From the NCBI GenBank assembly GCA_051747385.1, contig JBNJGB010000024.1:25797-89796 (forward strand): DNA of 64,000 bases. Direction: 5' to 3'. The DNA is from Myxococcota bacterium. GTDB taxonomy: Bacteria; Myxococcota_A; UBA9042; PHBI01; JACKFB01. This document shows, piece after piece, positions 10,333-64,000 of the stretch (position 1 is the stretch's first letter; each line of letters opens with the position of its first letter). The notes below the pieces were generated by a model that was given only the letters and a program-made list of their open reading frames with translations, did not search any database and had not been told where the DNA came from. Position numbers and translations under genes: made by a program.

Positions 10333-10408
10333 TGGCGTCCCCAGAGGGAATCGAACCCTCGTTACCGGCTTGAAAGGCCAGCGTCCTGGGCCACTAGACG
10401 ATGGGGAC
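10333..10408 (-). tRNA. tRNA-Glu (anticodon TTC), CCA encoded
   Basis: Reverse complement is GTCCCCATCGTCTAGTGGCCCAGGACGCTGGCCTTTCAAGCCGGTAACGAGGGTTCGATTCCCTCTGGGGACGCCA. This is near-identical in architecture to canonical bacterial tRNA-Glu, with anticodon loop CTTTCAA. Confidence 0.85.
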
Positions 10409-10425
10409 CCGATCGGTCGTTGTCG

Positions 10426-10498
10426 TGAGCCGAGCGGGGGTCGAACCCGCGACCATTGGATTAAAAGTCCAGTGCTCTACCAGCTGAGCTATCGGCTC
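10426..10498 (-). tRNA. tRNA-Lys (anticodon TTT)
   Basis: Reverse complement is GAGCCGATAGCTCAGCTGGTAGAGCACTGGACTTTTAATCCAATGGTCGCGGGTTCGACCCCCGCTCGGCTCA. It folds as a cloverleaf with a GAGCCGA/TCGGCTC acceptor stem and anticodon loop CTTTTAA. Confidence 0.85.
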
Positions 10499-53523: not shown

Positions 53524-54318
53524 GTGGAAGGCGAGATGATCATCCAACCGCTTCCGCTGGAGCGGGTCGGCCCGGGCGGCGATCTGCGCGAGGCCTTCCT
53601 GGCCGTCCAGGAGCCATGGCAGGACCGCGGGCTGGTCCGGTGGATCGACCTCGTGCGGCCCGACGGCCGGTGGCCGGTCGAGGTGGTCGGCGCGTGGCCC
53701 GAGGGGCGGCCGGAGGCCCTGTCCGGGACCATCGTCTGCGTCTGGGCGCCGGAGGTCCTGTCCCGCTTCGACGACCTGCTGGAAGGATCGGGCCCCGATG
53801 GAGTGCGCGGCGACTCCCGGCCGACGGACGGCGCGTGGCACCTCATCGCCGTGACCACGGTGCCGGAGACCCGGGGGACCGGCCTGGGCCGCCGCCTTGC
53901 CCGGGGCGCCCTGCGCGTGCTCGGCGATCGGGACCCCACCACCACGGTCTGCACCTTGTCTCCCGCCGTGGGGCTGGCGGATCTGGCGGAGCAGGTGCCC
54001 GGCGAGAGCTTCGAGGAGCGCGTGCGGGCCGTGCTGTGGCGGGTCTCCGACGACGAGGGCCGCCCCGTCCTCCGCATCCAGCGGTTCCACTTAGGCAACG
54101 GCGCGACCCTGGGGGCCGTGCTCTTCGACAGCCGCCGCGACGACGCGTCGAGCGGGTGCGTGACCCTGCGGTTCGACTACTCGCTCGACCCGGCTGAGCA
54201 GCGGGCCAACCTGGGGTCCTTCCGCCGATGGGTCGAGGACCGCCGGCGCCGGCTTCGTGCCGGGGAGGGACGCTCCCTGAGTCGCCGCGAGGGTGCTCTG
54301 CTGCTGGCCGACACCTGA
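53524..54318 (+). CDS. Malonyl-CoA decarboxylase (MCD)-like protein, short form
   Basis: C-terminal RFHLGNGATLGAVLFDSRRDDASSGCVTLRFDY matches the MCD catalytic-domain signature (RFHLxNGA...S.G.mvNYrY). At 264 aa it is shorter than characterised MCDs. Confidence 0.55.
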   Translation: MEGEMIIQPLPLERVGPGGDLREAFLAVQEPWQDRGLVRWIDLVRPDGRWPVEVVGAWPEGRPEALSGTIVCVWAPEVLSRFDDLLEGSGPDGVRGDSRPTDGAWHLIAVTTVPETRGTGLGRRLARGALRVLGDRDPTTTVCTLSPAVGLADLAEQVPGESFEERVRAVLWRVSDDEGRPVLRIQRFHLGNGATLGAVLFDSRRDDASSGCVTLRFDYSLDPAEQRANLGSFRRWVEDRRRRLRAGEGRSLSRREGALLLADT

Positions 54319-54428
54319 GCCTCGCAGGGCTGTGGCCGGGGCGCCCCGTTTTGAGGCCGCCGTGGCCCGTGATAGTGTCTCGTTTCCGAGCCCCGACCAC
54401 TCGGGCAGCGGGGCTCTGGGAGGTGGGC

Positions 54429-56255
54429 GTGGCGTCAGGGACCGATAGCGGGGCGGGCGATGCCCTGATCGGCAGGACGCTGGCCGGGCGATATCGGGTC
54501 GATCGGCTCCTGGGGCGGGGCGGCATGGGCTCCGTGTATGCGGCAGAGCACATGGCGATCGAGCGGCCCGTTGCCCTGAAGGTGCTGGCGCCCCACCTCT
54601 CGGAGGATCCGGCGCAGGTGGAGCGCTTCAACCAGGAGGCGCGCGCCTCCAGTCGGCTGGAGCACCCCAACACCATCCGGGTCTTCGACTACGGACAGTC
54701 CGAGGACGGCCAGCTCTTCCTCGCCATGGAGCTTCTCGAGGGCGAGGAGCTGTCGCGGGTCATTCGTCGGGAGGGGGCCCTGGAGCCGGCCCGGGCCGTG
54801 CGCATCGCCCGGCAGATGGGCAAGTCCATCGGCGAGGCCCACCAGGCGGGTGTCATCCACCGGGACCTGAAGCCGGACAACGTCTTCCTGAGCCAGATCT
54901 ACGGCGAGCGCGACTTCGTGAAGGTCCTGGACTTCGGGATCGCGAAGTTCACGGACGGGTCGCCCGCCCAGCAGTCCCTCACCCAGACCGGGTTCATCGC
55001 GGGCACGCCATTGTACATCGCCCCCGAGCACGCCCTGGGTCAGCAGGTCACGGCTCGGACGGATCTCTACTCCCTCGGCGTGATGCTCTACGAGATGCTC
55101 ACGGGTGTGCTCCCGTTCCGGGCGGACACCCCGCTGGGCATCGTGATGAAGCACATCCACGAGGCGCCGCCGCCCCTCCGGGAGAAGAAGCCGGACCTGG
55201 AGATCCCGCGGGATCTCGAGGCCCTGGTCCTCCGGCTGCTGTCCAAGAAGCCCAAGGATCGCCCGGCCAGCGCGAAGGAGGTCGGGGACGCGCTCGACGC
55301 CGTCGATTTCAGCGGCTCCTCCGCCCCCCCGGCCAGGCGGTTCAAGGACTTCGGGGTGGGCCAGGAGGAGGAGACCGTCCTGTCCGGGGCTGCGATGGAT
55401 CCGCACGAGGCGCAGCCGTCGCACGCGCCCGAGGCCGAGGTGCACGAGCCGACGCCGGCCCGGATGCCGGCCGTGGCGCGCCGCTCCCACCCGGGGACCC
55501 TCGCGTCCCGACCGAGCACCAGCGGCGCCGGGGCTCCGGCCGAGACGGGGGCCATCGGCGTGGGGCAGGGGCAGCCTGCGACGACCGGGTCCGGGGGAGA
55601 CACGAGTCCGTGGGCGGTGGCGGGCGCCGTCCTGGCGGCCATGGTCGTGATCCTCGGCGGCGGCGTGACCCTCTGGTTCACGGCGGGGCCGGGCGCAGCC
55701 GAGGAGGAGCCCCCGGCGGCTTCGGCCACCGCGTCGCAGGAGACGACAGGCGCGGAGGGCACCGAGGCGGCCGGCGCCGAGACGAACGAAGAGCCCGTGC
55801 CGATCCGGGACGACCGATCGCGGACGGCGGCCGCCGTGCCGCCCGCGGACGGGGAGGCTGGCGCCGAGGACGAGGCCGGCGCGGAGGTGCACGACACCGT
55901 TTCGGCCGAAGGCGAGGGCGCGGAGGAGGAGGCTCCCGAGCCGGAGCCCGCCCGGGTCGAGATCCGGACGCAGCCGGTCGGGGCGGAGATCGTCGACGGC
56001 GAGGAGAGCCTCGGGCAGGCGCCGGTGGAGGTCTCCGTGGAGGCGGGGGGTGAGCGCTCCCTCACGGCGCGCCTGGACGGCCACCGGGACGCTGAGATCA
56101 CGGTGCCGTCCGACGCCGAGGGGCCGGTCGAGGTGACGCTGGAGAAGGTCCGGCCCGAGCCGACCGCGCGCCCGAAGAAGGGGCCCACGAAGCCACGCGC
56201 CAGCAGGAAGGGCGGCGGCTCGGAGGAGCCCGTCTGGAAGGACTGGGACGAGTAG
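54429..56255 (+). CDS. Ser/Thr protein kinase with a TM segment and a C-terminal PEGA domain
   Basis: GRGGMGSVY...ALKVL, HRDLKPDN, DFGIAK and APE motifs; TM helix WAVAGAVLAAMVVILGGGVTLWF; C-terminal PEGA (VEIRTQPVGAEIVDGE...). GTG start with a GGAGG Shine-Dalgarno; the upstream track extension overlaps the previous gene. Confidence 0.8.
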   Translation: MASGTDSGAGDALIGRTLAGRYRVDRLLGRGGMGSVYAAEHMAIERPVALKVLAPHLSEDPAQVERFNQEARASSRLEHPNTIRVFDYGQSEDGQLFLAMELLEGEELSRVIRREGALEPARAVRIARQMGKSIGEAHQAGVIHRDLKPDNVFLSQIYGERDFVKVLDFGIAKFTDGSPAQQSLTQTGFIAGTPLYIAPEHALGQQVTARTDLYSLGVMLYEMLTGVLPFRADTPLGIVMKHIHEAPPPLREKKPDLEIPRDLEALVLRLLSKKPKDRPASAKEVGDALDAVDFSGSSAPPARRFKDFGVGQEEETVLSGAAMDPHEAQPSHAPEAEVHEPTPARMPAVARRSHPGTLASRPSTSGAGAPAETGAIGVGQGQPATTGSGGDTSPWAVAGAVLAAMVVILGGGVTLWFTAGPGAAEEEPPAASATASQETTGAEGTEAAGAETNEEPVPIRDDRSRTAAAVPPADGEAGAEDEAGAEVHDTVSAEGEGAEEEAPEPEPARVEIRTQPVGAEIVDGEESLGQAPVEVSVEAGGERSLTARLDGHRDAEITVPSDAEGPVEVTLEKVRPEPTARPKKGPTKPRASRKGGGSEEPVWKDWDE

Positions 56256-56261
56256 GGGCCG

Positions 56262-56524
56262 CAGGCGGCTTGGACCGCGCGTCGTGCATATCTCGTCGAG
56301 AACCCGCGAAACGTGGTGTGGTCGGCGCACAGCGACCCCACGCGAGCCCGGAGCCCGCCGTCCAACGAACGCGACCGGCGCGCGGGACCGAGGCTGTCCC
56401 CGGCCGCGCGCCGGATACGCCGGTGGGAGTCGCTCCTTCAGGCACGGGCATGGGCAAGGGCAAAGGCAAGGGCGCGAGGCCACTTGCCGAGTTGAGCATG
56501 ATCGACAGGCGGCTTGGACCGCGC
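56262..56524 (-). repeat. Degenerate family A-related element, copy 3, flanked by 19-bp direct repeats
   Basis: Contains the hexamer core in reverse orientation (ggcacgggcatgggcaagggcaaaggcaaggg at 56441..56475) but lacks the hairpin. Flanked by identical caggcggcttggaccgcgc at 56262..56280 and 56506..56524. Confidence 0.4.
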
Positions 56525-56571
56525 CCGCCGGCGCGCTATCTTCCTCCGCGTCGCGACGTCCGGGAGGCACC

Positions 56572-57705
56572 GTGGCGCGAAGATCGAGCAGCAGAGCGTT
56601 CCGTCCCCTCATCCTGGCCCTGGTGGCGTGCCTGCTCCAGGTCGGCGGTCCGGCGCACGCCGCGACCCCGGAGGAGCGAGAGGCGTATCGCCTCTACCAG
56701 GCGGCGGCCGAGGATTTCGACGCGCGGGACTTCGAGGCCGCCGCGGAGAAGCTCGGGCGCGCCCATGACCTGTTCCCCAAGCCGATCATCCTCTTCAAGA
56801 AGGCGCAGGCCCTGGAGAACCTGGGCCGATTGGAGGAGGCCCGGGACGCCCTCGAGGAGGTGGAGCCGGACAGCCGGGGCCTGAAGGCCAAGGTGCAGGC
56901 AGCGCGCCGGCGGCTGGAGGTGCTGCTCGCGGAGCCGGTCAAGGTGTCCGTGCTGACCGGCGAGGTCACCGGTGCGCGCATCCTGCTGGACGGCGAGGAC
57001 GTGGGGAAGACGACGCCCGCCGTGCTGGACCTGGAGCGAGGAGAGCACGTCCTGCGCATCGAGCGGGAGGGCTACGAGCCTCACGTCATCGATCCGCTGG
57101 TGGTGCGCGGCCGCGATCCCATCGTGGCCGAGGTCGACCTGGTGCGGGCCACCGGACGGCTCCGGATCGAGGTGAGCGGAGGGACCTTCGAGGACGTGCA
57201 GGCGAGCCTCGACGGCGAGCCTATGGAGGCCGATCCCGTGGGCCGGACCGTCGTCCGGAGCGTCCCGGTCGGGGCGCACCGCGTCACCTGCCACGCCGAG
57301 GGCGAGTCCCCGGTCGCGCACGAGGTGACGGTGGAGCAGGACCGGGTGACGACTGTCCGCTGCGCCCTCGCGCCCGGCATCTCCTCGGGTCGCGCCTGGG
57401 CCGCCGGCAGCCTGCTCGTCGTCGGAGGCGGTACCTTCGCGTACGGCGGATGGCTGGTGAAGTCCTACCTGGACGACGTGGATCATGCCGACGCCACGAA
57501 CCAGGACCTGGACTCCAACAAGCAGATCTTCGGCCCGGTCCTCCTCGGGGTCGGCTCGGCGGCCATCGTGACGGGCACGGTGCTGCTGGCTCGGCGTCCG
57601 GACGCGTCCGGGGATGACGCGCCGAGCGAGGCCGCGCTGCCGCTCACGCCGCAGCTCGGCGTGCGGCCCGGCGGCGGATGGGTCGGCCTCGGCGGGAGCT
57701 TCTAG
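56572..57705 (+). CDS. Secreted TPR-like plus tandem PEGA-domain protein with a C-terminal TM anchor
   Basis: GTG start with a GGGAGG Shine-Dalgarno. Signal peptide ending PAHA-A. Two PEGA-like domains (VKVSVLTGEVTGARILLDGEDVGKTTP..., LRIEVSGGTFEDVQASLDGEPM...). C-terminal TM. Confidence 0.65.
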   Translation: MARRSSSRAFRPLILALVACLLQVGGPAHAATPEEREAYRLYQAAAEDFDARDFEAAAEKLGRAHDLFPKPIILFKKAQALENLGRLEEARDALEEVEPDSRGLKAKVQAARRRLEVLLAEPVKVSVLTGEVTGARILLDGEDVGKTTPAVLDLERGEHVLRIEREGYEPHVIDPLVVRGRDPIVAEVDLVRATGRLRIEVSGGTFEDVQASLDGEPMEADPVGRTVVRSVPVGAHRVTCHAEGESPVAHEVTVEQDRVTTVRCALAPGISSGRAWAAGSLLVVGGGTFAYGGWLVKSYLDDVDHADATNQDLDSNKQIFGPVLLGVGSAAIVTGTVLLARRPDASGDDAPSEAALPLTPQLGVRPGGGWVGLGGSF

Positions 57706-58206: not shown

Positions 58207-59862
58207 TCAGCTCTCGGGTGTCGGGCTCGGAGGCTCCGCGGCCGCGACCGGCTCGTCGCCCGGGGGCGCCATGGGCAGGGTCAGCTCCACGCGCGTGCCT
58301 TCGCCCTCGGTCGAGCGCACGACGATGGCGCCCCCAGCCTCGGCGACGTACGCGTACACGAGCGAGAGTCCGAGGCCCAGCCCCTTCGTGGCGCTGGGAG
58401 CCTTGGTGCTGGCGTAGGGCTCGAAGACGCGGTGAAGGGTGTCCTTCGGGATCCCCACGCCCGTGTCGCTGACGGCGATCCGGATGCAGGGCTCGTCTGG
58501 CAGCGACGGAAACCGGCGCCGCAGCGCCGTGGTCGGCTTGGCGGCGCTCACCTCGACCCGGAGATGCCCCCCGTGCGGCATGGCGTCGAGGGCGTTGCGG
58601 AAGATCTGCTCCAGGCTGTCCGCGAGCTGGACCCGATCCGTGCGGGCCTCCATCGGTCCCGAGCTCACCTCCACGTCCACGTGCACCTCCGGCGGCGTCC
58701 GGCGCGCGAGTCCCTGGGCGGTGTGCCACACGAGATCGGCGACGTCGACACACTCCGTTGGCGAGGCGCTCCTCGAGCGGAGGCGGGACAGGCTGTGGAC
58801 GAGCTGGGTCACCTGGCCCGCCGCGTGCGCCACCTGGTTGAGGTAGCGGCGCTTCCTGGCGTCCGTCTCCCGCGCGAGCAGCAGCTCGACGTAGCCGGCG
58901 ACGGCGGTCATCGTGTTGTTGATGTCGTGGGCCATCCCCCCCGCGAGCCTCGCGGTGGCCTCCATGGACTCCATCTGGCGCATGCGTATCTCGGTCATCC
59001 GCTGCTCCGCCACGTCCTCCAGCAACACGAGCAGCTTGTCCACGACGCCGCCCTCCCGGAAGATCGGCACCCCGGTGTAGACGACCCACACCTCCTTGCC
59101 GGCGACGGTCGTCATGCGGACCTCGCGACTAAACGGACGCCCGGCCAGGAGCCCGCGGAACTGGGGTTGGATGCCCGCCTCCTTGTACGGGACCAGGTCG
59201 CCGATGTTGTACCGGAACGCCTCGGTCAGCATCGAGGGCGGCATCCCGATGATCCGCATGTAGGCGTCGTTCATGGTGATGATCCGGCCGTCGGCGTCCG
59301 CCAGCAGGATGCCCGTGGGGGTGTGGTCGAACACGGATCGGAAGAGGCGCTCGCTCTGTCGCAGCCGGCGGGTGGACTCCTCCACCTCGGTGCGATCCTC
59401 CACCGTGAGCACATGGCAGTGAGGCTCGTCGGCGCCCTCGGGATAGGGCCGGGCGCCAGCGCGGATGAATCGGCGCGAGCCGTCGGGGAAGCGGATCTCC
59501 ATGGGTTCCGGGGGCACCGGGTGGCCGGTGCGGATGGCGCGTGGCAGCGGAAGCTCGTCGAACGGAATCGGCCGACCGTCGGAGTCGAGAGGTCGAGAGA
59601 TCATTCTCTCTGGTGCGAGGCACCACGTGCCCGGCTCCTCCACCTGAAACATCGTGCGGAATGCCTGGTTCAGGTACAGGAGGCGGTGCGGCGATGCAGC
59701 ATCCACGATCAGGACCCCGATGGGGAGCCGGTCGAATACTGCGCTGGGGACTCGATCCTCGTCCACTCTCTCGCTCCCGTTGCGACTTCGACCAAGGGGC
59801 CCGTCCCGGTCCGGGAAGCCGCCACAAGACCCCACCTTGTCCTCTGTCCCGATGCCTGTCAA
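58207..59862 (-). CDS. PAS-domain sensor histidine kinase (two PAS domains, HisKA, HATPase_c)
   Basis: H-box MAHDINNTMTAVAGYVELL, G1 DTGVGIP and G2 GLGLGLS motifs. The N-terminal extent is uncertain. Confidence 0.8.
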   Translation of the reverse strand: MTGIGTEDKVGSCGGFPDRDGPLGRSRNGSERVDEDRVPSAVFDRLPIGVLIVDAASPHRLLYLNQAFRTMFQVEEPGTWCLAPERMISRPLDSDGRPIPFDELPLPRAIRTGHPVPPEPMEIRFPDGSRRFIRAGARPYPEGADEPHCHVLTVEDRTEVEESTRRLRQSERLFRSVFDHTPTGILLADADGRIITMNDAYMRIIGMPPSMLTEAFRYNIGDLVPYKEAGIQPQFRGLLAGRPFSREVRMTTVAGKEVWVVYTGVPIFREGGVVDKLLVLLEDVAEQRMTEIRMRQMESMEATARLAGGMAHDINNTMTAVAGYVELLLARETDARKRRYLNQVAHAAGQVTQLVHSLSRLRSRSASPTECVDVADLVWHTAQGLARRTPPEVHVDVEVSSGPMEARTDRVQLADSLEQIFRNALDAMPHGGHLRVEVSAAKPTTALRRRFPSLPDEPCIRIAVSDTGVGIPKDTLHRVFEPYASTKAPSATKGLGLGLSLVYAYVAEAGGAIVVRSTEGEGTRVELTLPMAPPGDEPVAAAEPPSPTPES

Positions 59863-59966
59863 CGGACTTCCCCGGAGGGCGCGACACGCTGTGACCGGCG
59901 CCCGGAACCGCGGCCTGTTCGGGGTTTCGCCTTGCGTTTCGGGGGCGCGGCGTCTGTAGTGGCGTC

Positions 59967-61202
59967 ATGGCGACCGACGGACCCGACAGCCCTGCGCGAC
60001 CCGACGACCGCCGCGCCCTGACCCACGTGGGCGGGCGCGTCCGACTGATCGGCGACGGCGCGTTCGCGGACCTCCTCGAGGACGCGGCCTGTCCGCCCGG
60101 GGAGGACGACGGGCGAGCCCTGACCCACGGGTTCCACACGTGGCCCGCCCGCATGCACCCGCACACGGCCCGGGTGCTGGTTCGCGCCGCGCCGGCCGAG
60201 GGCGCGATCCTGGACCCGTTCATGGGTGGGGGCACCGTGCCGGTGGAGGCGCTGCGCGCCGGTCGGGCGTGCCACGGCGCGGACGTCAACCCGGTGGCCC
60301 TGGAGGTCGCTTGGGCCCGCACGCGGGTGTGGTCGCGAGAGCGCCTGGAGGCCCTCGAGGCCCGCGCGGGCGAGGTCGTGGCCACCGCCAGGAGGCTGCG
60401 CGCCCAGGCCGGCGTGCCGGACGACCTGCGCCGCCGGGAGGGGCGCTGGTACGATCCGCCGGCCCTGGCGGAGGTCTGGAGCCTGGCGGAGGCCATCCGG
60501 GCCGAGGGGGATCCGAGGCTCGGTCGCATGCTGCGGGCGTGTCTGTCGTCGCTCCTGGTGAAGGCCTCTCGACAGGAGTCCGACACGGTGCCCCGGAAGG
60601 CGCGGAAGCACCGCTGGGTGCCGAAGGGCCGGGTGGAGCGCTGGTTCCGCCGCCGCGTGCGTGAGGTCTGCGGGCGTCTGGCGGATCTGGCCGCCGAGGT
60701 GCCCGAGGGGACGCCGCCGCCGCGCCTGTCCGTGCGGGACGCCCGGGCCCCCCTGCCGGGGCGGATGGGGCCGGTCGCGATGGTGGTGACCTCCCCGCCG
60801 TATCCGGGAGTGTACGACTACGCGGAGTACCAGGACCGCCGGTATGCGGCCCTCGGGCTCGAGTCGCGGGCCGCCCTGCGGGACGAGATGGGGGCGCGAC
60901 GGGACGTGAAGAAGCGCGGCTGGATGTCCGCCGCCTGGCGGTTCGAGCAGGACCTCGGCGCCGCCATGGCACGCTGGCGGGAGGCCCTGCGGCCGGACGG
61001 CCTGGCGGCCCTGGTCATCGGCGACGGCGAGCACGGGGAGGGCGTCATCCGGGTGATGCCTCTCCTGGAGCGCGCCGCCGGGGAGGCCGGGCTGGGCGTG
61101 CGGGCCGCGGCCAGCCAGGCGCGACCGGTGCACGGCCCGGCCCGCCGCGCCGGAGTGAAGCAGCGAGAGGAGCACGTGGTGATGCTGGGGGTGGAGCGTT
61201 GA
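59967..61202 (+). CDS. SAM-dependent methyltransferase with N6-adenine/N4-cytosine-type motifs (motif I then motif IV); DNA versus RNA substrate unresolved
   Basis: Motif I ILDPFMGGGTVPVEA followed by HGADVNPVALEVA (UPF0020-like), and motif IV VVTSPPYPGVY about 190 aa later; 411 aa. Confidence 0.6.
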   Translation: MATDGPDSPARPDDRRALTHVGGRVRLIGDGAFADLLEDAACPPGEDDGRALTHGFHTWPARMHPHTARVLVRAAPAEGAILDPFMGGGTVPVEALRAGRACHGADVNPVALEVAWARTRVWSRERLEALEARAGEVVATARRLRAQAGVPDDLRRREGRWYDPPALAEVWSLAEAIRAEGDPRLGRMLRACLSSLLVKASRQESDTVPRKARKHRWVPKGRVERWFRRRVREVCGRLADLAAEVPEGTPPPRLSVRDARAPLPGRMGPVAMVVTSPPYPGVYDYAEYQDRRYAALGLESRAALRDEMGARRDVKKRGWMSAAWRFEQDLGAAMARWREALRPDGLAALVIGDGEHGEGVIRVMPLLERAAGEAGLGVRAAASQARPVHGPARRAGVKQREEHVVMLGVER

Positions 61203-61633
61203 GCGGAGAGGACGGCTGGAGCGACGAGCGGACGCCCCTCGCCGAGGTGCGGGAGCGGCTGCGGGCCTTCAACCGGGACCGGGAGTGGGGCCAGTTCCAC
61301 AAGCCCAAGGACCTGGCCATGGCCGTCACCATCGAGGCCGGAGAGCTCCTGGAGCCGTTCCTCTGGAAGGCGGAGGGCGAGGACCTGGACGTGGACCGCA
61401 TCCGCGAGGAGATCGCGGACGTGATCATCTGCGCCGTGAACCTCGCCGGGCGCCTGGACATCGACCTCCTCGAGGCCGTGGAGGCCAAGATCCGCCGCAA
61501 CGCCGAGAAGTATCCCGTCGAGCAGGCCCGCGGGCGCGCCGACAAGTACGATCAGCTCGACCAGCGGAGCGCAGGGCCTCGCGCCAAGGCGCCAAGCCGC
61601 GAAGCCGCGGAGAGTTCGGGAAAGATGGAGTAG
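61199..61633 (+). CDS. MazG-like nucleotide pyrophosphohydrolase (all-alpha NTP-PPase), 144 aa
   Basis: EWGQFHKPKDLAMAVTIEAGELLE...EEIADVIICAVNLA matches the MazG/NTP-PPase helix-metal-binding pattern. The TTG start overlaps the methyltransferase stop as TTGA. Confidence 0.6.
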   Translation: MSGEDGWSDERTPLAEVRERLRAFNRDREWGQFHKPKDLAMAVTIEAGELLEPFLWKAEGEDLDVDRIREEIADVIICAVNLAGRLDIDLLEAVEAKIRRNAEKYPVEQARGRADKYDQLDQRSAGPRAKAPSREAAESSGKME

Positions 61634-61718: not shown

Positions 61719-63330
61719 TCAGAGCTTCCTGTACAGCGCCCAGCGACCCTGGCGCGCGACGAGCTCGACGCGGCGATCCCAGCGGCCGAAGGGATTCCTC
61801 GGGTGCTCGGGACCGCCGTCGCGCACGAGGAAGTAGTCGTACCAGCGGCCGTGGCGCGGGAAGCGGAATCGGTGCGGCGTCCACTCCCAGCGGTTCGGCA
61901 GGCGGGGCGGGGCGGCGCCGTCGGCGTAGCGCACCGGGGATTGCGGGAAGTCCACGAAGGAGAAGGTCGCGACCCCGCCGCGCTCGACGACGTAGTACTG
62001 CCCGAAGTGCAGGTAGGGCGCGTGGTTCACCACCTCGCTGCCCCGGTCGAAGATGAGCGCCGTGAGGCGCTTGCCCGGCGCGGCCTGCCGGACCACCTCG
62101 CGGACGGCGCCGGCCTCGTCCTCGAAGGCCTCGAACTTCTCCACGTGCACCGATGCAGCCCACAACGACAGCGCGGTGGCGGGGACGACCAGCAGCCACG
62201 GCCGCGCGGGGAGGCGCCGCCACGTGAGCGTCGCGAGGCCGAACAGGACCACCAGGGGGGCGAGCCGGTGCGAGATGGGCCAGATCCACTTGTAGGAGAT
62301 GGGCGACAGCAGGTAGATGCCCGCCATCACCACGGCGAGGATCTCCGGCGTGCGCTCCCGGAGCCAGGCCCGCCGCGGGCCGTAGTCGGCGATCTCCTCC
62401 GCCGCCGGGGACGAGCGCCGGAACAGGAAGAGCACCAGGCCGAGGGCGAGCAGGGCGAAGAGGAGGACGTCGTCCGCGTCGCCCCGGTAGGCGTCCAGGA
62501 GCTGGCGCGGGAAGGCGGACAGGCGGTCGAGCATGGGCTCCCAGCGGACGTCCACCGGGGAGACGTTCCGGCCGCCGTGTCCCTGCTGCCACTCCTCGGC
62601 GCCCGCCAGGATCCGCGAGCGCCCGATCCACACGCCGAGCAACGCGACGGCGGGGACCAGGTGGAGGCCCTGGCGCCACCAGTGCCGCGGGTGGAGCCCC
62701 CGGGGCGTCGTGAGGCCGACGATACCCGCGAACAGCCCGTACAGGAGGAACGGCTGGGCGTGGCTGTAGAAGAGCAGCACCGTGAGCGCCACGAGGCCTG
62801 TCCAGCGGATCCAGGAGAAGTCGTCGATCAGGCGCCGGAGCACCGCCAGCGCCCATAGCAGGATCGGGAACGCGGCCACGTAGTTCACGAAGCCCATGAA
62901 CAGGAACGTGTTGTAGGCCAGCGGCGCGGCGAGGAGCGCCACGGCCGGGTCCCGGCCGAAGGCGCGCAGGTAGGCCGCCATCGCCAGGGGCAGGCCGGCC
63001 GCGTACAGGGAAAGGACGACCCGGTTCGCCACCTCCAGGGGCATGAGCCAGGCCAGGGCGTCCACCGCGAAGTAGTAGGCCAGGTACTGGGTGTCGGCCA
63101 GGTGGACCTCGTAGTAGGGCGCCATGCCGAAGGCCGGATCGGCGAGGTCGTGGAGGATGCGGATCGTCGCCAGGTGCTGCGGCAGGTCCATGAACGGCAG
63201 CAGCGACGTCACCCACAGGGGCACCACCAGGGCGACCAGGCTGACCAGCAGCCCGGCGACCAGCCAGGGATCCCGACGGACGGCCGACCAGAGGGGTCGG
63301 GCGGCTGTGGGCGCGGGCTGGGACACGGTG
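61719..63330 (-). CDS. Hypothetical polytopic membrane protein with a C-terminal soluble domain
   Basis: About 11 predicted TM helices after WLVAGLLVSLVALVVPLWV. The track ORF 61719..63689 runs through a repeat element; the real start is probably near 63330 (GTG or internal Met, unresolved). Confidence 0.5.
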
Positions 63331-63393
63331 GCGCTCCTCTCCGGCGGGGCGTCGCCGTGGACGACGCCGGGGCAGCGGCTTATAGCGAGGGCG

Positions 63394-63600
63394 AGGGGGC
63401 TTCGGCAACCGGGAGGGGGCTTCGGCAACCGGGAGGGGGCTTCGGCCAGGGCAATCGCAGACTCGAAGAACTGTGGGCCGTTCGGCGGTACGGCGTCCGG
63501 CGCCGGATTGCACCCGCTCGGAAACGATGGACTTTGCGCGTCTGAGAGCAGGCAAGGGGGGCGGTCGACTTTGCGACCGCCCTGGGGCTTCGGCAACCGG
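63394..63600 (-). mobile_element. Family A MITE-like element, copy 4 (core 63449..63583, reverse orientation), flanked by tandemly repeated 16-20-bp direct repeats
   Basis: The reverse complement carries the same hairpin, one CCCTTG unit, the CCATCGTTTCCGAGCGGGTG box and the GCGATTGCCC end. Flanks: gggggcttcggcaaccggga repeated two and a half times on one side and ggggcttcggcaaccgg on the other. Confidence 0.5.
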
Positions 63601-63660
63601 GCCGTGTTGCGGACTCGCGCGCGTGTTAGCGTGGATCGCCACAGACCAGGAGGATCCGCC

Positions 63661-64000
63661 ATGGGCGACGAAGCCGCCGCCTTCCCCACCCACCTGAGCC
63701 TGGAGGACGCCTCGGAGCGCGTGCACGAGGCCGTCGAGGCTCACCTCGCGCGGGCCGAGCCCGAGATCGTGGAGGTCCCCATCTGGGAGGCCCGCGGCGG
63801 CGTGCTGGGCCGCGACGTGCTCGCGGATCGGGATCAGCCCCCCTTCGATCGCTCCGCCATGGATGGCTACGCCGTGCGCTCCGCGGACGTGGGCGAGGGC
63901 GGGGCGACGCTGAGGGTGGTGGGGGACCTGCCGGCCGGAGCCTCGTGGGATCGAGGGCTGGCCCCCGGCGAGGCCCTGGCCATCATGACGGGCGCGCCGG
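63661..64000 (+). CDS. moeA: Molybdopterin molybdotransferase MoeA, N-terminal part (continues beyond the window)
   Basis: ATG at 63661 with an AGGAGGAT Shine-Dalgarno. Translation MGDEAAAFPTHLSLEDASERVHEA...DQPPFDRSAMDGYAVRSADV matches the MoeA N-terminal domain. Not in the ORF track because it is truncated. Confidence 0.75.
   Translation, partial: MGDEAAAFPTHLSLEDASERVHEAVEAHLARAEPEIVEVPIWEARGGVLGRDVLADRDQPPFDRSAMDGYAVRSADVGEGGATLRVVGDLPAGASWDRGLAPGEALAIMTGAP

What the first reader, a model, noticed from the sequence alone, without database searches (positions are those of the whole stretch)
59967..61633. Orphan SAM-dependent methyltransferase TTGA-coupled to a MazG-like NTP pyrophosphohydrolase
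The 411-aa protein has a motif I (ILDPFMGGGT) and a distant SPPY motif IV typical of amino-methyltransferases acting on nucleic-acid bases. No restriction endonuclease is adjacent. Its stop overlaps the TTG start of a 144-aa all-alpha MazG/NTP-PPase-like protein. One reading is a methyltransferase plus nucleotide-pool sanitiser (hydrolysis of methylated or non-canonical dNTP/NTP). Another is a small defence or modification module. I do not know this pairing as a described system.
Basis: inference. Interest (0 to 1): 0.55.

Follow-up and report, generated by a model that had tools for sequence, protein, structure and literature searches.

The report
Orphan methyltransferase coupled to dCTPase-like enzyme
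A Myxococcota chromosome carries a conserved two-gene operon that joins an uncharacterised nucleic-acid methyltransferase with no restriction partner to a relative of the human enzyme DCTPP1, which destroys methylated DNA building blocks; the pairing looks real and old, but what it methylates is still unknown.

Summary
A 411-aa SAM methyltransferase (59967-61202, motif I DPFMGGGT, motif IV TSPPY) ends in a TGA that overlaps the TTG start of a 144-aa MazG-like protein (61199-61633).

The second protein is a clear DCTPP1/RS21-C6 homologue (E 4e-19). Its metal ligands and Trp sandwich are intact.

The pair is not a chance neighbour. A MazG-like gene follows the methyltransferase in 9 of its 10 closest species-level relatives, and in two other branches of the family. 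Twelve of 15 co-directional pairs keep the same NTGA overlap.

The setting is chromosomal and syntenic (PAS kinase, MoeA, DNA pol III chi). I found no nuclease, no defence-system hit, no phage relatives and no GC anomaly, so the defence reading is not supported.

The methyltransferase family occurs in more than 587 species. It is a circular permutation of beta-class N4/N6 DNA methylases with a basic helical insertion. Sequence profiles favour DNA methylases, but the fold is closest to tRNA m2G methyltransferases, so DNA versus RNA is unresolved.

Most family members (66 of 80 loci) lack the partner.

My best reading, at moderate confidence, is methylation plus sanitation of the methylated-nucleotide pool. 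I rate it a new variant of a known kind, of moderate interest.

The parts
59863..59966 (+). Intergenic region between the divergent PAS histidine-kinase gene and the methyltransferase gene; presumed promoter region of the two-gene operon.
   Evidence: ORF map. The consensus scan found no sigma-70-like promoter and no terminator between 59700 and 61900. The operon boundaries are therefore inferred from gene orientation only.
59967..61202 (+). Gene for a 411-aa SAM-dependent amino-methyltransferase with no restriction partner. It is a permuted relative of beta-class N4/N6 methylases.
   Evidence: The AlphaFold2 model has pLDDT 89.3. More than 587 species-level genomes encode a relative.
60207..60236 (+). 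Motif I (SAM binding), ILDPFMGGGT, residues 81-90.
   Evidence: D83, P84, F85, G87 and G89 are invariant in 28 family members. This region matches the C-terminal part of Pfam N6_N4_Mtase.
60336..60698 (+). Largely helical, basic insertion (residues 124-244) between motif I and motif IV; the presumed target-recognition module.
   Evidence: Secondary structure of the AlphaFold2 model. It has 30 K+R against 19 D+E across residues 120-250. It carries family-wide conserved residues (L167, L193, S194, K199, S201, D206, E233, L238). It has no match in PDB by sequence profile.
60792..60803 (+). Motif IV (catalytic), SPPY, residues 276-279, within the conserved stretch TSPPYPGVYDY.
   Evidence: S276, P277, P278, Y279, Y283, D284 and Y285 are invariant. 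This stretch aligns to motif IV of the putative DNA methylase TTHA0409 (2zie), but in permuted order.
61199..61202 (+). TTGA overlap of the methyltransferase stop and the MazG-like start (translational coupling).
   Evidence: The same NTGA overlap is present in 12 of 15 co-directional homologous pairs. Two more pairs have an 8-nt overlap.
61199..61633 (+). Gene for a 144-aa all-alpha NTP pyrophosphohydrolase of the MazG-like / DCTPP1 (RS21-C6) type.
   Evidence: PF12643, 58.3 bits. PDB sequence matches: 2a3q and 6sqw (DCTPP1), E 4e-19. 2432 homologues were found.
61334..61420 (+). Catalytic core of the MazG-like protein: metal ligands E46, E49, E71 and D74, with W56 of the Trp sandwich. C78 lies just beyond, at the position of DCTPP1 Tyr102.
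   Evidence: Alignment to mouse DCTPP1. Residue roles are taken from PMC13291643.

Best explanation
This is a chromosomal, vertically inherited two-gene operon, not a mobile or defence element.

Gene 1 encodes a SAM-dependent methyltransferase of an uncharacterised family. The family is a circular permutation of the beta-class N4/N6 amino-methylases: motif I comes first, then a basic helical insertion of about 120 residues, then the catalytic TSPPY motif. The insertion is conserved across the family rather than variable, so the enzyme probably has one fixed target. I favour the N4 of cytosine in chromosomal DNA. A base in rRNA or tRNA is the main alternative.

Gene 2 is translated by re-initiation at a start codon that overlaps the stop of gene 1. 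It encodes a DCTPP1-type all-alpha nucleoside-triphosphate pyrophosphohydrolase with a complete catalytic site.

Proposed logic: turnover of the methylated nucleic acid releases methylated nucleotides. Salvage kinases could convert these to triphosphates, and polymerases would then insert them at random positions. The pyrophosphohydrolase returns them to monophosphates. This is what DCTPP1 does with 5-methyl-dCTP in mammals.

Shown here: gene structure, homologies, intact active sites, conservation of the pair and of its overlap, absence of a nuclease, and the syntenic housekeeping context.

Inferred: the methylated atom, DNA versus RNA as target, the substrate of the hydrolase, and the functional link itself.
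For: The partner is a DCTPP1-type enzyme.
- PDB sequence matches have E 4e-19.
- Metal ligands E46, E49, E71 and D74, the Trp sandwich W30/W56 and H34 (equivalent to His51) are invariant. Residue roles come from PMC13291643.
- DCTPP1 is described as preventing misincorporation of methylated dCTP (PMC13291643 abstract).

The pairing is conserved.
- Nine of the 10 closest genome loci carry it, as do L081, L082/L083, L085 and the P0040 locus.
- It also appears in two other branches of the methyltransferase tree (L039/L057; L060/L071/L080).
- The NTGA overlap is kept in 12 of 15 co-directional pairs, including the distant L039 and L080.

The link is reciprocal.
- The closest MazG homologues form one clade.
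- At least 14 of them sit on contigs of exactly the same length as contigs carrying methyltransferase homologues.
- In a metagenome survey seeded with MazG, the methyltransferase is upstream in 3 of 7 loci of the Cys/Ser/Thr-78 subfamily and in 0 of 50 loci with Tyr/Phe at that position.

The methyltransferase looks like a nucleic-acid amino-methylase.
- Its motif IV is TSPPY.
- The best PDB profile hit is the putative DNA methylase TTHA0409 (E 1e-15, three permuted segments). N4-cytosine DNA methylases, MboIIA and CcrM follow.
- Pfam N6_N4_Mtase hits 27 of 28 members.
- PADLOC Type II methylase model PDLC03364 covers residues 53-317.
- The protein has a net positive charge.

The context is housekeeping.
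- Synteny: PAS kinase / methyltransferase / MazG / MoeA / DNA pol III chi.
- GC content is normal.
Against: - 66 of 80 methyltransferase loci have no MazG-like gene nearby. These include the Polyangiaceae, the Planctomycetota and Chondromyces crocatus. L006 and L086, inside or next to the linked clade, have lost it.
- Members of the same MazG subfamily occur without the methyltransferase. Neither gene strictly needs the other as a neighbour.
- All adjacency cases could descend from one ancestral operon. The number of independent events may therefore be as low as one.
- The DCTPP1 cytosine filter His38 is Leu or Val in all bacterial homologues examined.
- Tyr102 of the deoxyribose pocket is Cys here. 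Base and sugar specificity may therefore differ from DCTPP1.
- No biochemical or methylome data exist.
Confidence: 0.4

Rival explanations
1. Operon by descent only. Two independent housekeeping genes, a fixed-target methyltransferase and a general NTP house-cleaning enzyme, became overlapped in an ancestor of this lineage. They have stayed together because separating overlapping genes is costly, not because their chemistries are linked.
For: - The MazG-like family is widespread in phyla that lack this methyltransferase. Homologues at 50-55% identity occur in MAGs labelled Chitinophagaceae and Opitutales, and 0 of 50 aromatic-78 loci are linked.
- Most methyltransferase loci lack the partner.
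- Unlinked members of the same MazG subfamily exist.
- The whole block is syntenic with unrelated genes such as MoeA and holC.
- Four-nucleotide overlaps are common in compact high-GC operons (general knowledge).
Against: - Adjacency with the same overlap survives to about 37% methyltransferase identity (L039, L080). It is seen in three parts of the methyltransferase tree.
- Two loci keep the genes adjacent in convergent orientation (L060, L071).
- Gene order around the pair is otherwise poorly conserved.
Confidence: 0.35
2. The methyltransferase acts on RNA (for example m2G or m4C in tRNA or rRNA) rather than DNA. If the partner is linked at all, it cleans methylated ribonucleoside triphosphates. 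This overlaps with the best explanation and differs only in the substrate.
For: - A collinear sequence match to Trm11 covers profile positions 32-115 of alignment A1.
- UPF0020 is hit by 14 of 28 members.
- The insertion and the family are conserved lineage-wide, as is typical of RNA-modification enzymes.
- A pseudouridine synthase is the divergent neighbour in L085 and L086.
- Replacement of the deoxyribose-pocket Tyr102 by Cys/Ser/Thr in the linked MazG subfamily could relax exclusion of ribose (inference).
Against: - There is no THUMP or other RNA-binding domain. The N-terminal region before the Rossmann core is only about 60 residues.
- Motif IV is SPPY. The characterised m2G enzymes have D/N-PP-Y/F/H (family knowledge, from memory).
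- N6_N4_Mtase outscores UPF0020 throughout the family.
- The best profile hit is a DNA-methylase-type protein.
Confidence: 0.3
3. A restriction-modification remnant or anti-phage defence module, in which the MazG-like protein depletes nucleotides during infection.
For: - Generic PADLOC Type II methylase models match the methyltransferase.
- Nucleotide-depleting enzymes and MazG proteins are known in phage-host conflict (general knowledge).
Against: - No nuclease is present in the window or in any inspected relative.
- MazG and both flanking genes have no PADLOC hit.
- The chromosomal synteny is conserved and the phylogeny looks vertical.
- There are no relatives in 2.9 million viral contigs.
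- GC content is normal.
- The recognition module is conserved, whereas in R-M systems it varies.
Confidence: 0.03
4. A pre-replicative nucleotide-modification pathway. The pyrophosphohydrolase makes (d)CMP from (d)CTP, and the methyltransferase methylates the free nucleotide. This resembles the phage T4 dCTPase plus dCMP hydroxymethylase logic.
For: - The two enzymes are translationally coupled.
- The hydrolase has an intact dNTP-type active site.
- The methyltransferase has no solved full-length analogue and an insertion of unknown role.
Against: - The methyltransferase carries a large basic insertion and has polymer-methylase relatives.
- No kinase, polymerase or other pathway gene is conserved alongside.
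- Most family members work without the hydrolase.
- No viral relatives exist.
Confidence: 0.05

Closest known systems
DCTPP1 / RS21-C6 (mammalian all-alpha dCTP pyrophosphatase 1; PDB 2a3q, 6sqw, 2oig)
   Same: Homology is clear (E 4e-19 over residues 14-124). Both belong to the same Pfam family, PF12643. Conserved features are the metal ligands, the Trp47/Trp73 sandwich, His51, Phe41, Phe50, Ile101, Tyr129 and Asp98. The proposed role, removing methylated dCTP so that it is not incorporated, is the documented role of DCTPP1 (PMC13291643, PMC4491611).
   Different: His38, which hydrogen-bonds the cytosine O2, is Leu. Tyr102 of the deoxyribose pocket is Cys (Cys, Ser or Thr across the linked subfamily). 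The loop after Trp73 is 7 residues shorter. The substrate is untested. Here the gene is physically coupled to a methyltransferase gene; in mammals the link to DNMTs is only metabolic.
Beta-class N4/N6 DNA amino-methyltransferases (Pfam N6_N4_Mtase: TTHA0409/2zie, N4C methylases 8s9m, M.MboIIA, CcrM, M.RsrI)
   Same: Motif I (DPFxGxGT) with the preceding HP...A...L segment, motif IV (T)SPPY with the preceding D-A-R, and the following L.P.GR..V..GD strand all align at sequence level. The S-P-P-Y variant is the one associated with N4-cytosine methylases (PROSITE N4_MTASE pattern, from memory).
   Different: The order of the halves is reversed: motif I comes before motif IV. An insertion of about 120 helical residues sits between them. 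The Pfam match covers only about 50 residues and barely passes the cut-off for the window protein (27.3 against 26.7).
Trm11 / Trm14 / TrmN (UPF0020 tRNA m2G methyltransferases)
   Different: Only the Rossmann core of about 180 residues aligns (TM 0.36). There is no THUMP domain. Motif IV is SPPY rather than D/N-PP-x. The helical insertion is absent from those enzymes.
Lineage-wide orphan DNA methyltransferases (CcrM, Dam; the orphan 4mC methylase of Leptospira, PMC7708080)
   Same: There is no cognate nuclease. The gene is conserved across a large clade with conserved synteny and a conserved recognition module, which fits a regulatory or housekeeping role rather than defence.
   Different: The architecture and family are different. 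DNA as substrate is not shown. None of those enzymes is known to be operon-coupled to an NTP pyrophosphohydrolase (my literature searches found none).
House-cleaning NTPases for modified nucleotides (Maf/ASMTL, RdgB, MazG proper)
   Same: The concept is the same: hydrolysis of modified (d)NTPs that arise from nucleic-acid turnover. ASMTL is reported to hydrolyse N4-methyl-dCTP among other substrates (PMC12470816).
   Different: Maf and RdgB have a different fold. In the held literature I found no described pairing of such an enzyme with the methyltransferase that would create the modification.
Phage T4 gp56 dCTPase with dCMP hydroxymethylase
   Same: A dCTP-hydrolysing enzyme is paired with a base-modifying enzyme (from memory).
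   Different: That system is viral, works on free nucleotides and replaces cytosine completely. Here the context is cellular and chromosomal, and the methyltransferase is of the polymer-modifying type.

Membership tests
MazG-like / DCTPP1 all-alpha NTP pyrophosphohydrolases (PF12643) | Profile score above the curated cut-off | tested here: met
   58.3 bits against a cut-off of 27, covering profile positions 3-85 of 85.
MazG-like / DCTPP1 all-alpha NTP pyrophosphohydrolases (PF12643) | Metal-binding E-x-x-E ... E-x-x-D set (DCTPP1 Glu63, Glu66, Glu95, Asp98) | tested here: met
   E46, E49, E71 and D74 are invariant in all 139 aligned sequences.
MazG-like / DCTPP1 all-alpha NTP pyrophosphohydrolases (PF12643) | Tryptophan sandwich for the base (Trp47/Trp73) | tested here: met
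   W30 and W56 are invariant. Residue roles come from PMC13291643.
DCTPP1 proper (cytosine- and deoxyribose-specific) | His38/His51 dyad that reads cytosine O2 and N3 | tested here: not met
   His51 is kept (H34). His38 is L21, and it is Leu, Val or Ile in nearly all bacterial homologues.
DCTPP1 proper (cytosine- and deoxyribose-specific) | Deoxyribose pocket Phe41/Ile101/Tyr102/Tyr129 | tested here: not met
   F24, I77 and Y105 are kept. Tyr102 is C78. That position is C, T or S in all 62 linked or in-clade sequences, and Y or F in 66 of 77 others.
DCTPP1 proper (cytosine- and deoxyribose-specific) | Hydrolysis of dCTP and 5-modified dCTP to dCMP plus PPi | not testable with these tools
   Needs an enzyme assay.
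Beta-class N6_N4_Mtase (PF01555) | Profile score above the curated cut-off | tested here: met
   The window protein scores 27.3 against 26.7, which is marginal and covers the motif I region only. 27 of 28 family members match, best E 5.7e-18.
Beta-class N6_N4_Mtase (PF01555) | Catalytic (D/S)PP(Y/F) and SAM-binding FxGxG motifs | tested here: met
   S276-P-P-Y279 and F85-M-G-G-G89 are invariant in the family.
Beta-class N6_N4_Mtase (PF01555) | Linear order: catalytic half, then recognition domain, then SAM-binding half | tested here: not met
   The order here is motif I (81-90), then the insertion (124-244), then motif IV (276-279). The match to 2zie is in three permuted segments.
N4-cytosine DNA methyltransferases | [LIVMF]-T-S-P-P-[FY] signature (PROSITE N4_MTASE, recalled from memory) | tested here: met
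   V-T-S-P-P-Y at residues 274-279. Relatives have T/S-S-P-P-Y.
N4-cytosine DNA methyltransferases | Produces m4C in DNA at a defined motif | not testable with these tools
   Needs a methylome or LC-MS.
UPF0020 / Trm11-Trm14-RlmL RNA m2G methyltransferases (PF01170) | Profile score above the curated cut-off, and fold similarity | tested here: met
UPF0020 / Trm11-Trm14-RlmL RNA m2G methyltransferases (PF01170) | N-terminal THUMP (or equivalent RNA-binding) domain | tested here: not met
   There is no THUMP hit. Only about 60 residues, partly disordered, precede the Rossmann core.
UPF0020 / Trm11-Trm14-RlmL RNA m2G methyltransferases (PF01170) | Motif IV with Asp or Asn (D/N-P-P-Y/F/H) | tested here: not met
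   Ser276 is invariant in 28 members. Trm11 has DPPY at the aligned position.
Type II restriction-modification system | Cognate endonuclease gene next to the methylase | tested here: not met
   The flanks are a PAS kinase, the MazG-like gene, a membrane ORF and MoeA. No nuclease domain appears in the window or in L081-L086.
Known anti-phage defence systems (PADLOC) | Match to a system-specific model, and a defence-island context | tested here: not met
   Nearly all of the listed hits are generic MTase_II models. The few system-specific ones (HmaB, mad2, DUF1156_MTase) match only the roughly 40-60 residues around motif I, at E about 1e-7 to 6e-5. MazG, the kinase and the membrane ORF have no hit. 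The synteny is housekeeping.
Lineage-conserved orphan methyltransferase (CcrM/Dam-like in logic) | No nuclease, clade-wide conservation, conserved recognition module and synteny | tested here: met
   More than 587 species genomes carry it. There are 32 invariant columns, some inside the insertion. Synteny is shown.

The most novel reading that the evidence does not exclude
A bacterial counterpart of the mammalian DNMT-DCTPP1 relationship, hard-wired as an operon. An orphan, circularly permuted N4-cytosine (or other amino) methyltransferase sets a fixed epigenetic or RNA mark. A dedicated, co-translated pyrophosphohydrolase has a remodelled sugar/base pocket (Tyr102 replaced by Cys, Ser or Thr) and is specialised to destroy the corresponding methylated triphosphate. 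This would protect the fidelity of the mark.
Probability: 0.25. Interest if true: 0.65.

Novelty: new variant of a known kind. Interest (0 to 1): 0.45.

Why it matters
Both parts belong to known superfamilies, but the combination does not appear in the literature I could search.

If the link is functional, it would be the first prokaryotic case in which a methyltransferase carries its own sanitiser for the methylated nucleotide. That would give a genetic handle on an open question: do bacteria need to keep salvaged methylated nucleotides out of DNA or RNA?

Independently of the partner, the methyltransferase family is large (more than 587 species of Myxococcota and Planctomycetota), orphan and conserved. 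It is architecturally distinct, being a permuted beta-class core with a new insertion, and has no characterised member. It is a candidate lineage-wide epigenetic or RNA-modification enzyme.

Tried and rejected
Pfam and NCBIfam on the single protein could not separate DNA from RNA methylase. Both hits sit at threshold. Scanning 28 members helped only modestly.

A stop-to-stop ORF clustering of the 80 loci was swamped by shadow ORFs in this 72% GC DNA. A crude GC3 gene caller mis-joined genes. I replaced both with HMM/tblastn detection and with the gene calls returned by the look-up of encoding contigs.

I looked for other conserved partners in the unlinked lineages. I found only an ECF sigma factor, a ferredoxin and MoeA, none of them informative.

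I looked for informative domain fusions in longer family members and found none.

The exact-sequence look-up of the window protein found no contig on record.

A viral-contig scan found no relatives.

Eight literature searches found no description of the pairing and no usable myxobacterial methylome.

The defence reading was considered and rejected for the reasons listed under the rival explanations.
Full report
**1. Observation**

The window is 70-77% GC throughout, apart from the first 2 kb (65%). Its methyltransferase is identical to a protein of a Myxococcota MAG on a 100-kb contig (P0001).

ORF 59967-61202 (+) encodes 411 aa. ORF 61199-61633 (+) encodes 144 aa and starts at a TTG whose last two bases are the first two of the upstream TGA stop.

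The TTG is a credible start for three reasons:
- It is the first start codon in the frame.
- Homologues carry ATG or GTG at the identical position.
- The conserved N-terminal motif W/Y-S-D-x-x-T (residues 7-12) lies upstream of any alternative start.

Motif I (ILDPFMGGGT, residues 81-90) and motif IV (SPPY, residues 276-279) are present. Their key residues are invariant in 28 family members.

The flanks are a divergent PAS histidine kinase (58207-59862) and a convergent membrane ORF with no family assignment (61719-63689), followed by the start of MoeA. No nuclease is present.

**2. The second gene**

It scores 58.3 bits on Pfam MazG-like, against a cut-off of 27. Its best solved relatives are mouse and human DCTPP1/RS21-C6 (E 4e-19), then an archaeal pyrophosphatase (4qgp).

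I took residue roles from a recent DCTPP1 structural paper (PMC13291643) and mapped them onto the window protein.
- Conserved: the four metal ligands (E46, E49, E71, D74), the tryptophan sandwich (W30, W56), His51 (H34), Phe41, Phe50, Ile101, Tyr129 and Asp98. These positions are invariant or nearly so in the 57 in-clade sequences.
- Changed: His38, which reads the cytosine O2, is Leu. This is so in essentially all bacterial homologues.
- Changed: Tyr102, which lines the deoxyribose pocket, is Cys.

The enzyme is therefore almost certainly an active NTP pyrophosphohydrolase of the DCTPP1 type. Its base and sugar preference cannot be read off from DCTPP1.

**3. The first gene**

Single-sequence Pfam is ambiguous: N6_N4_Mtase 27.3 bits and UPF0020 22.5 bits, both at threshold and both covering only the motif I region. 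Across 28 members, N6_N4_Mtase matches 27 (best 6e-18) and UPF0020 matches 14 (best 3e-9). A PADLOC Type II methylase model covers residues 53-317 (3.5e-19).

A family profile searched against PDB sequences gives these results:
- Best hit: the putative DNA modification methylase TTHA0409 (2zie, E 1e-15), in three segments that are in permuted order (motif IV, the following strand, then motif I).
- Next: Trm11 (6e-12, collinear), two unnamed methyltransferases, N4-cytosine DNA methylases, M.MboIIA and CcrM.

The AlphaFold2 model is confident (pLDDT 89.3, pTM 0.89). It shows a Rossmann core interrupted by a helical insertion (residues 124-244) that is basic and contains family-invariant residues.

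My conclusion is that this is an amino-methyltransferase for a nucleic-acid base. It is evolutionarily a circular permutation of the beta-class N4/N6 enzymes and is collinear with the Trm11 group. The invariant TSPPY fits the N4-cytosine signature (recalled from PROSITE), so I favour DNA m4C. RNA is not excluded; I put it at about 0.3.

**4. Distribution and context of the methyltransferase**

At least 587 GTDB species-representative genomes encode a relative. Most are Myxococcota (including Polyangiaceae, Sandaracinaceae, Sorangium and Chondromyces) and Planctomycetota. No relative was found in 2.9 million viral contigs.

In the window's own clade the neighbourhood is syntenic: a PAS kinase or an S4-pseudouridine synthase upstream, then the methyltransferase, the MazG-like gene, MoeA and DNA polymerase III chi. 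The window keeps this order. It has one extra membrane ORF inserted before MoeA.

This is the pattern of a vertically inherited housekeeping gene, not of a restriction-modification or defence island.

**5. Is the pairing real?**

The 80 best genome loci were chosen only by the methyltransferase. A MazG-like gene is adjacent in 14 of them:
- 9 of the 10 closest loci (45% identity or more). The exception, L006, has MoeA directly after the methyltransferase, which indicates a clean loss.
- L039 and L080, co-directional.
- L060 and L071, convergent.
- L057, 1.8 kb away.

Further look-ups add L081, L082/L083, L085 and the P0040 locus. L086 and Chondromyces crocatus lack the partner.

On a neighbour-joining tree of the methyltransferases, the linked loci fall in three separate parts.

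The stop/start overlap is NTGA in 12 of 15 co-directional pairs, including the distant L039 and L080. It is 8 nt in two more pairs.

The reverse direction agrees:
- The 40 or so closest MazG homologues form one clade.
- At least 14 of them lie on contigs whose length equals that of a contig carrying a methyltransferase homologue.

A metagenome survey seeded with the MazG alignment returned 80 diverse loci.
- Tyr/Phe at position 78: none of the 50 loci with enough upstream sequence has the methyltransferase.
- Cys/Ser/Thr at position 78: 3 of 7 do. By my own hypergeometric calculation from those counts, p is about 0.001, not corrected for phylogeny.

All linked MazG genes belong to this small-78 subfamily. 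So do some unlinked ones (P0169, P0156, L093, L100, L110).

The simplest history is an ancestral overlapped operon that has been kept in some lineages and broken in many others.

**6. Mechanism**

The evidence supports a two-gene operon with translational coupling. My best explanation (0.4) is methylation of a fixed nucleic-acid target, plus hydrolysis of the corresponding methylated triphosphate that would arise from turnover and salvage. This mirrors the documented DCTPP1 function of preventing incorporation of methylated dCTP (PMC13291643; PMC4491611). ASMTL, a Maf-family house-cleaning enzyme, is reported to hydrolyse N4-methyl-dCTP among other substrates (PMC12470816).

The main rival (0.35) is that the two genes are independent housekeeping functions kept together by descent. 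The frequent loss of linkage and the wide distribution of the MazG-like family are what this rival predicts.

Defence (0.03) and a free-nucleotide modification pathway (0.05) are poorly supported.

**7. Novelty**

Both proteins belong to known superfamilies and are already annotated generically: 'DNA methyltransferase' or 'hypothetical', and 'nucleotide pyrophosphohydrolase'.

Three things are new:
- The recognition that the methyltransferase family is a large, orphan, permuted family with an uncharacterised insertion.
- Its conserved, overlapped operon with a DCTPP1-type enzyme.
- The subfamily-specific change in the sugar pocket of that enzyme.

Eight full-text searches found no prior description. 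I rate it a new variant of a known kind, with interest 0.45.

Noticed in passing
window 61719-63689 (-): A 656-aa ORF with several hydrophobic segments and no Pfam, NCBIfam or PADLOC match. It sits between the MazG-like gene and MoeA. Syntenic relatives (L081, L085) have nothing there, so it looks like a lineage-specific insertion. The first 120 or so residues of the ORF may not be coding.
   Followed up: partly
window 63688-63999 (+): N-terminus of a MoeA (molybdopterin molybdenumtransferase) homologue, cut by the window end. It is 53% identical to the MoeA that follows MazG in L081, which shows that the synteny block is retained.
   Followed up: partly
MazG-like residue 78 (window 61430-61432) and homologues in L001-L010, L039, L057, L060, L071, L080 and L088-L090: The position equivalent to DCTPP1 Tyr102 (deoxyribose pocket) is Cys, Thr or Ser in every methyltransferase-linked MazG-like protein, and Tyr or Phe in most other bacterial homologues. 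This may mark a change in sugar or substrate specificity, or it may only mark the lineage.
   Followed up: partly
L006 7219-8589; L086 9221-11257: Two close relatives have lost the MazG-like gene. In L006, MoeA follows the methyltransferase directly. In L086, a convergent Ser/Thr kinase abuts it.
   Followed up: partly
L084 9317-9967 (Chondromyces crocatus CP012159) and 11 Polyangiaceae loci (L022, L035, L037, L044, L049, L050, L053, L059, L062, L063, L074): In this branch the methyltransferase is followed, on the same strand, by a 2Fe-2S ferredoxin. In C. crocatus a called 105-aa ORF with no family overlaps the methyltransferase stop by 4 nt. Its reality is doubtful, because the GC3 pattern favours the opposite strand.
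   Followed up: partly
window 54228-57705 (+): A Ser/Thr protein kinase with a C-terminal PEGA domain is followed by a TPR/PEGA protein. PEGA-domain proteins also recur in the syntenic neighbourhoods of relatives (L081, L082, L085).
   Followed up: no
window 10333-10498 (-): Adjacent tRNA-Glu(TTC) and tRNA-Lys(TTT) genes. These are the only Rfam matches in the window.
   Followed up: no
L039, L052, L054 (record titles): High-GC, myxobacterial-type loci carrying this methyltransferase are binned in MAGs labelled Cognaticolwellia or Enterobacterales. This is probably mis-binning or mislabelling.
   Followed up: no
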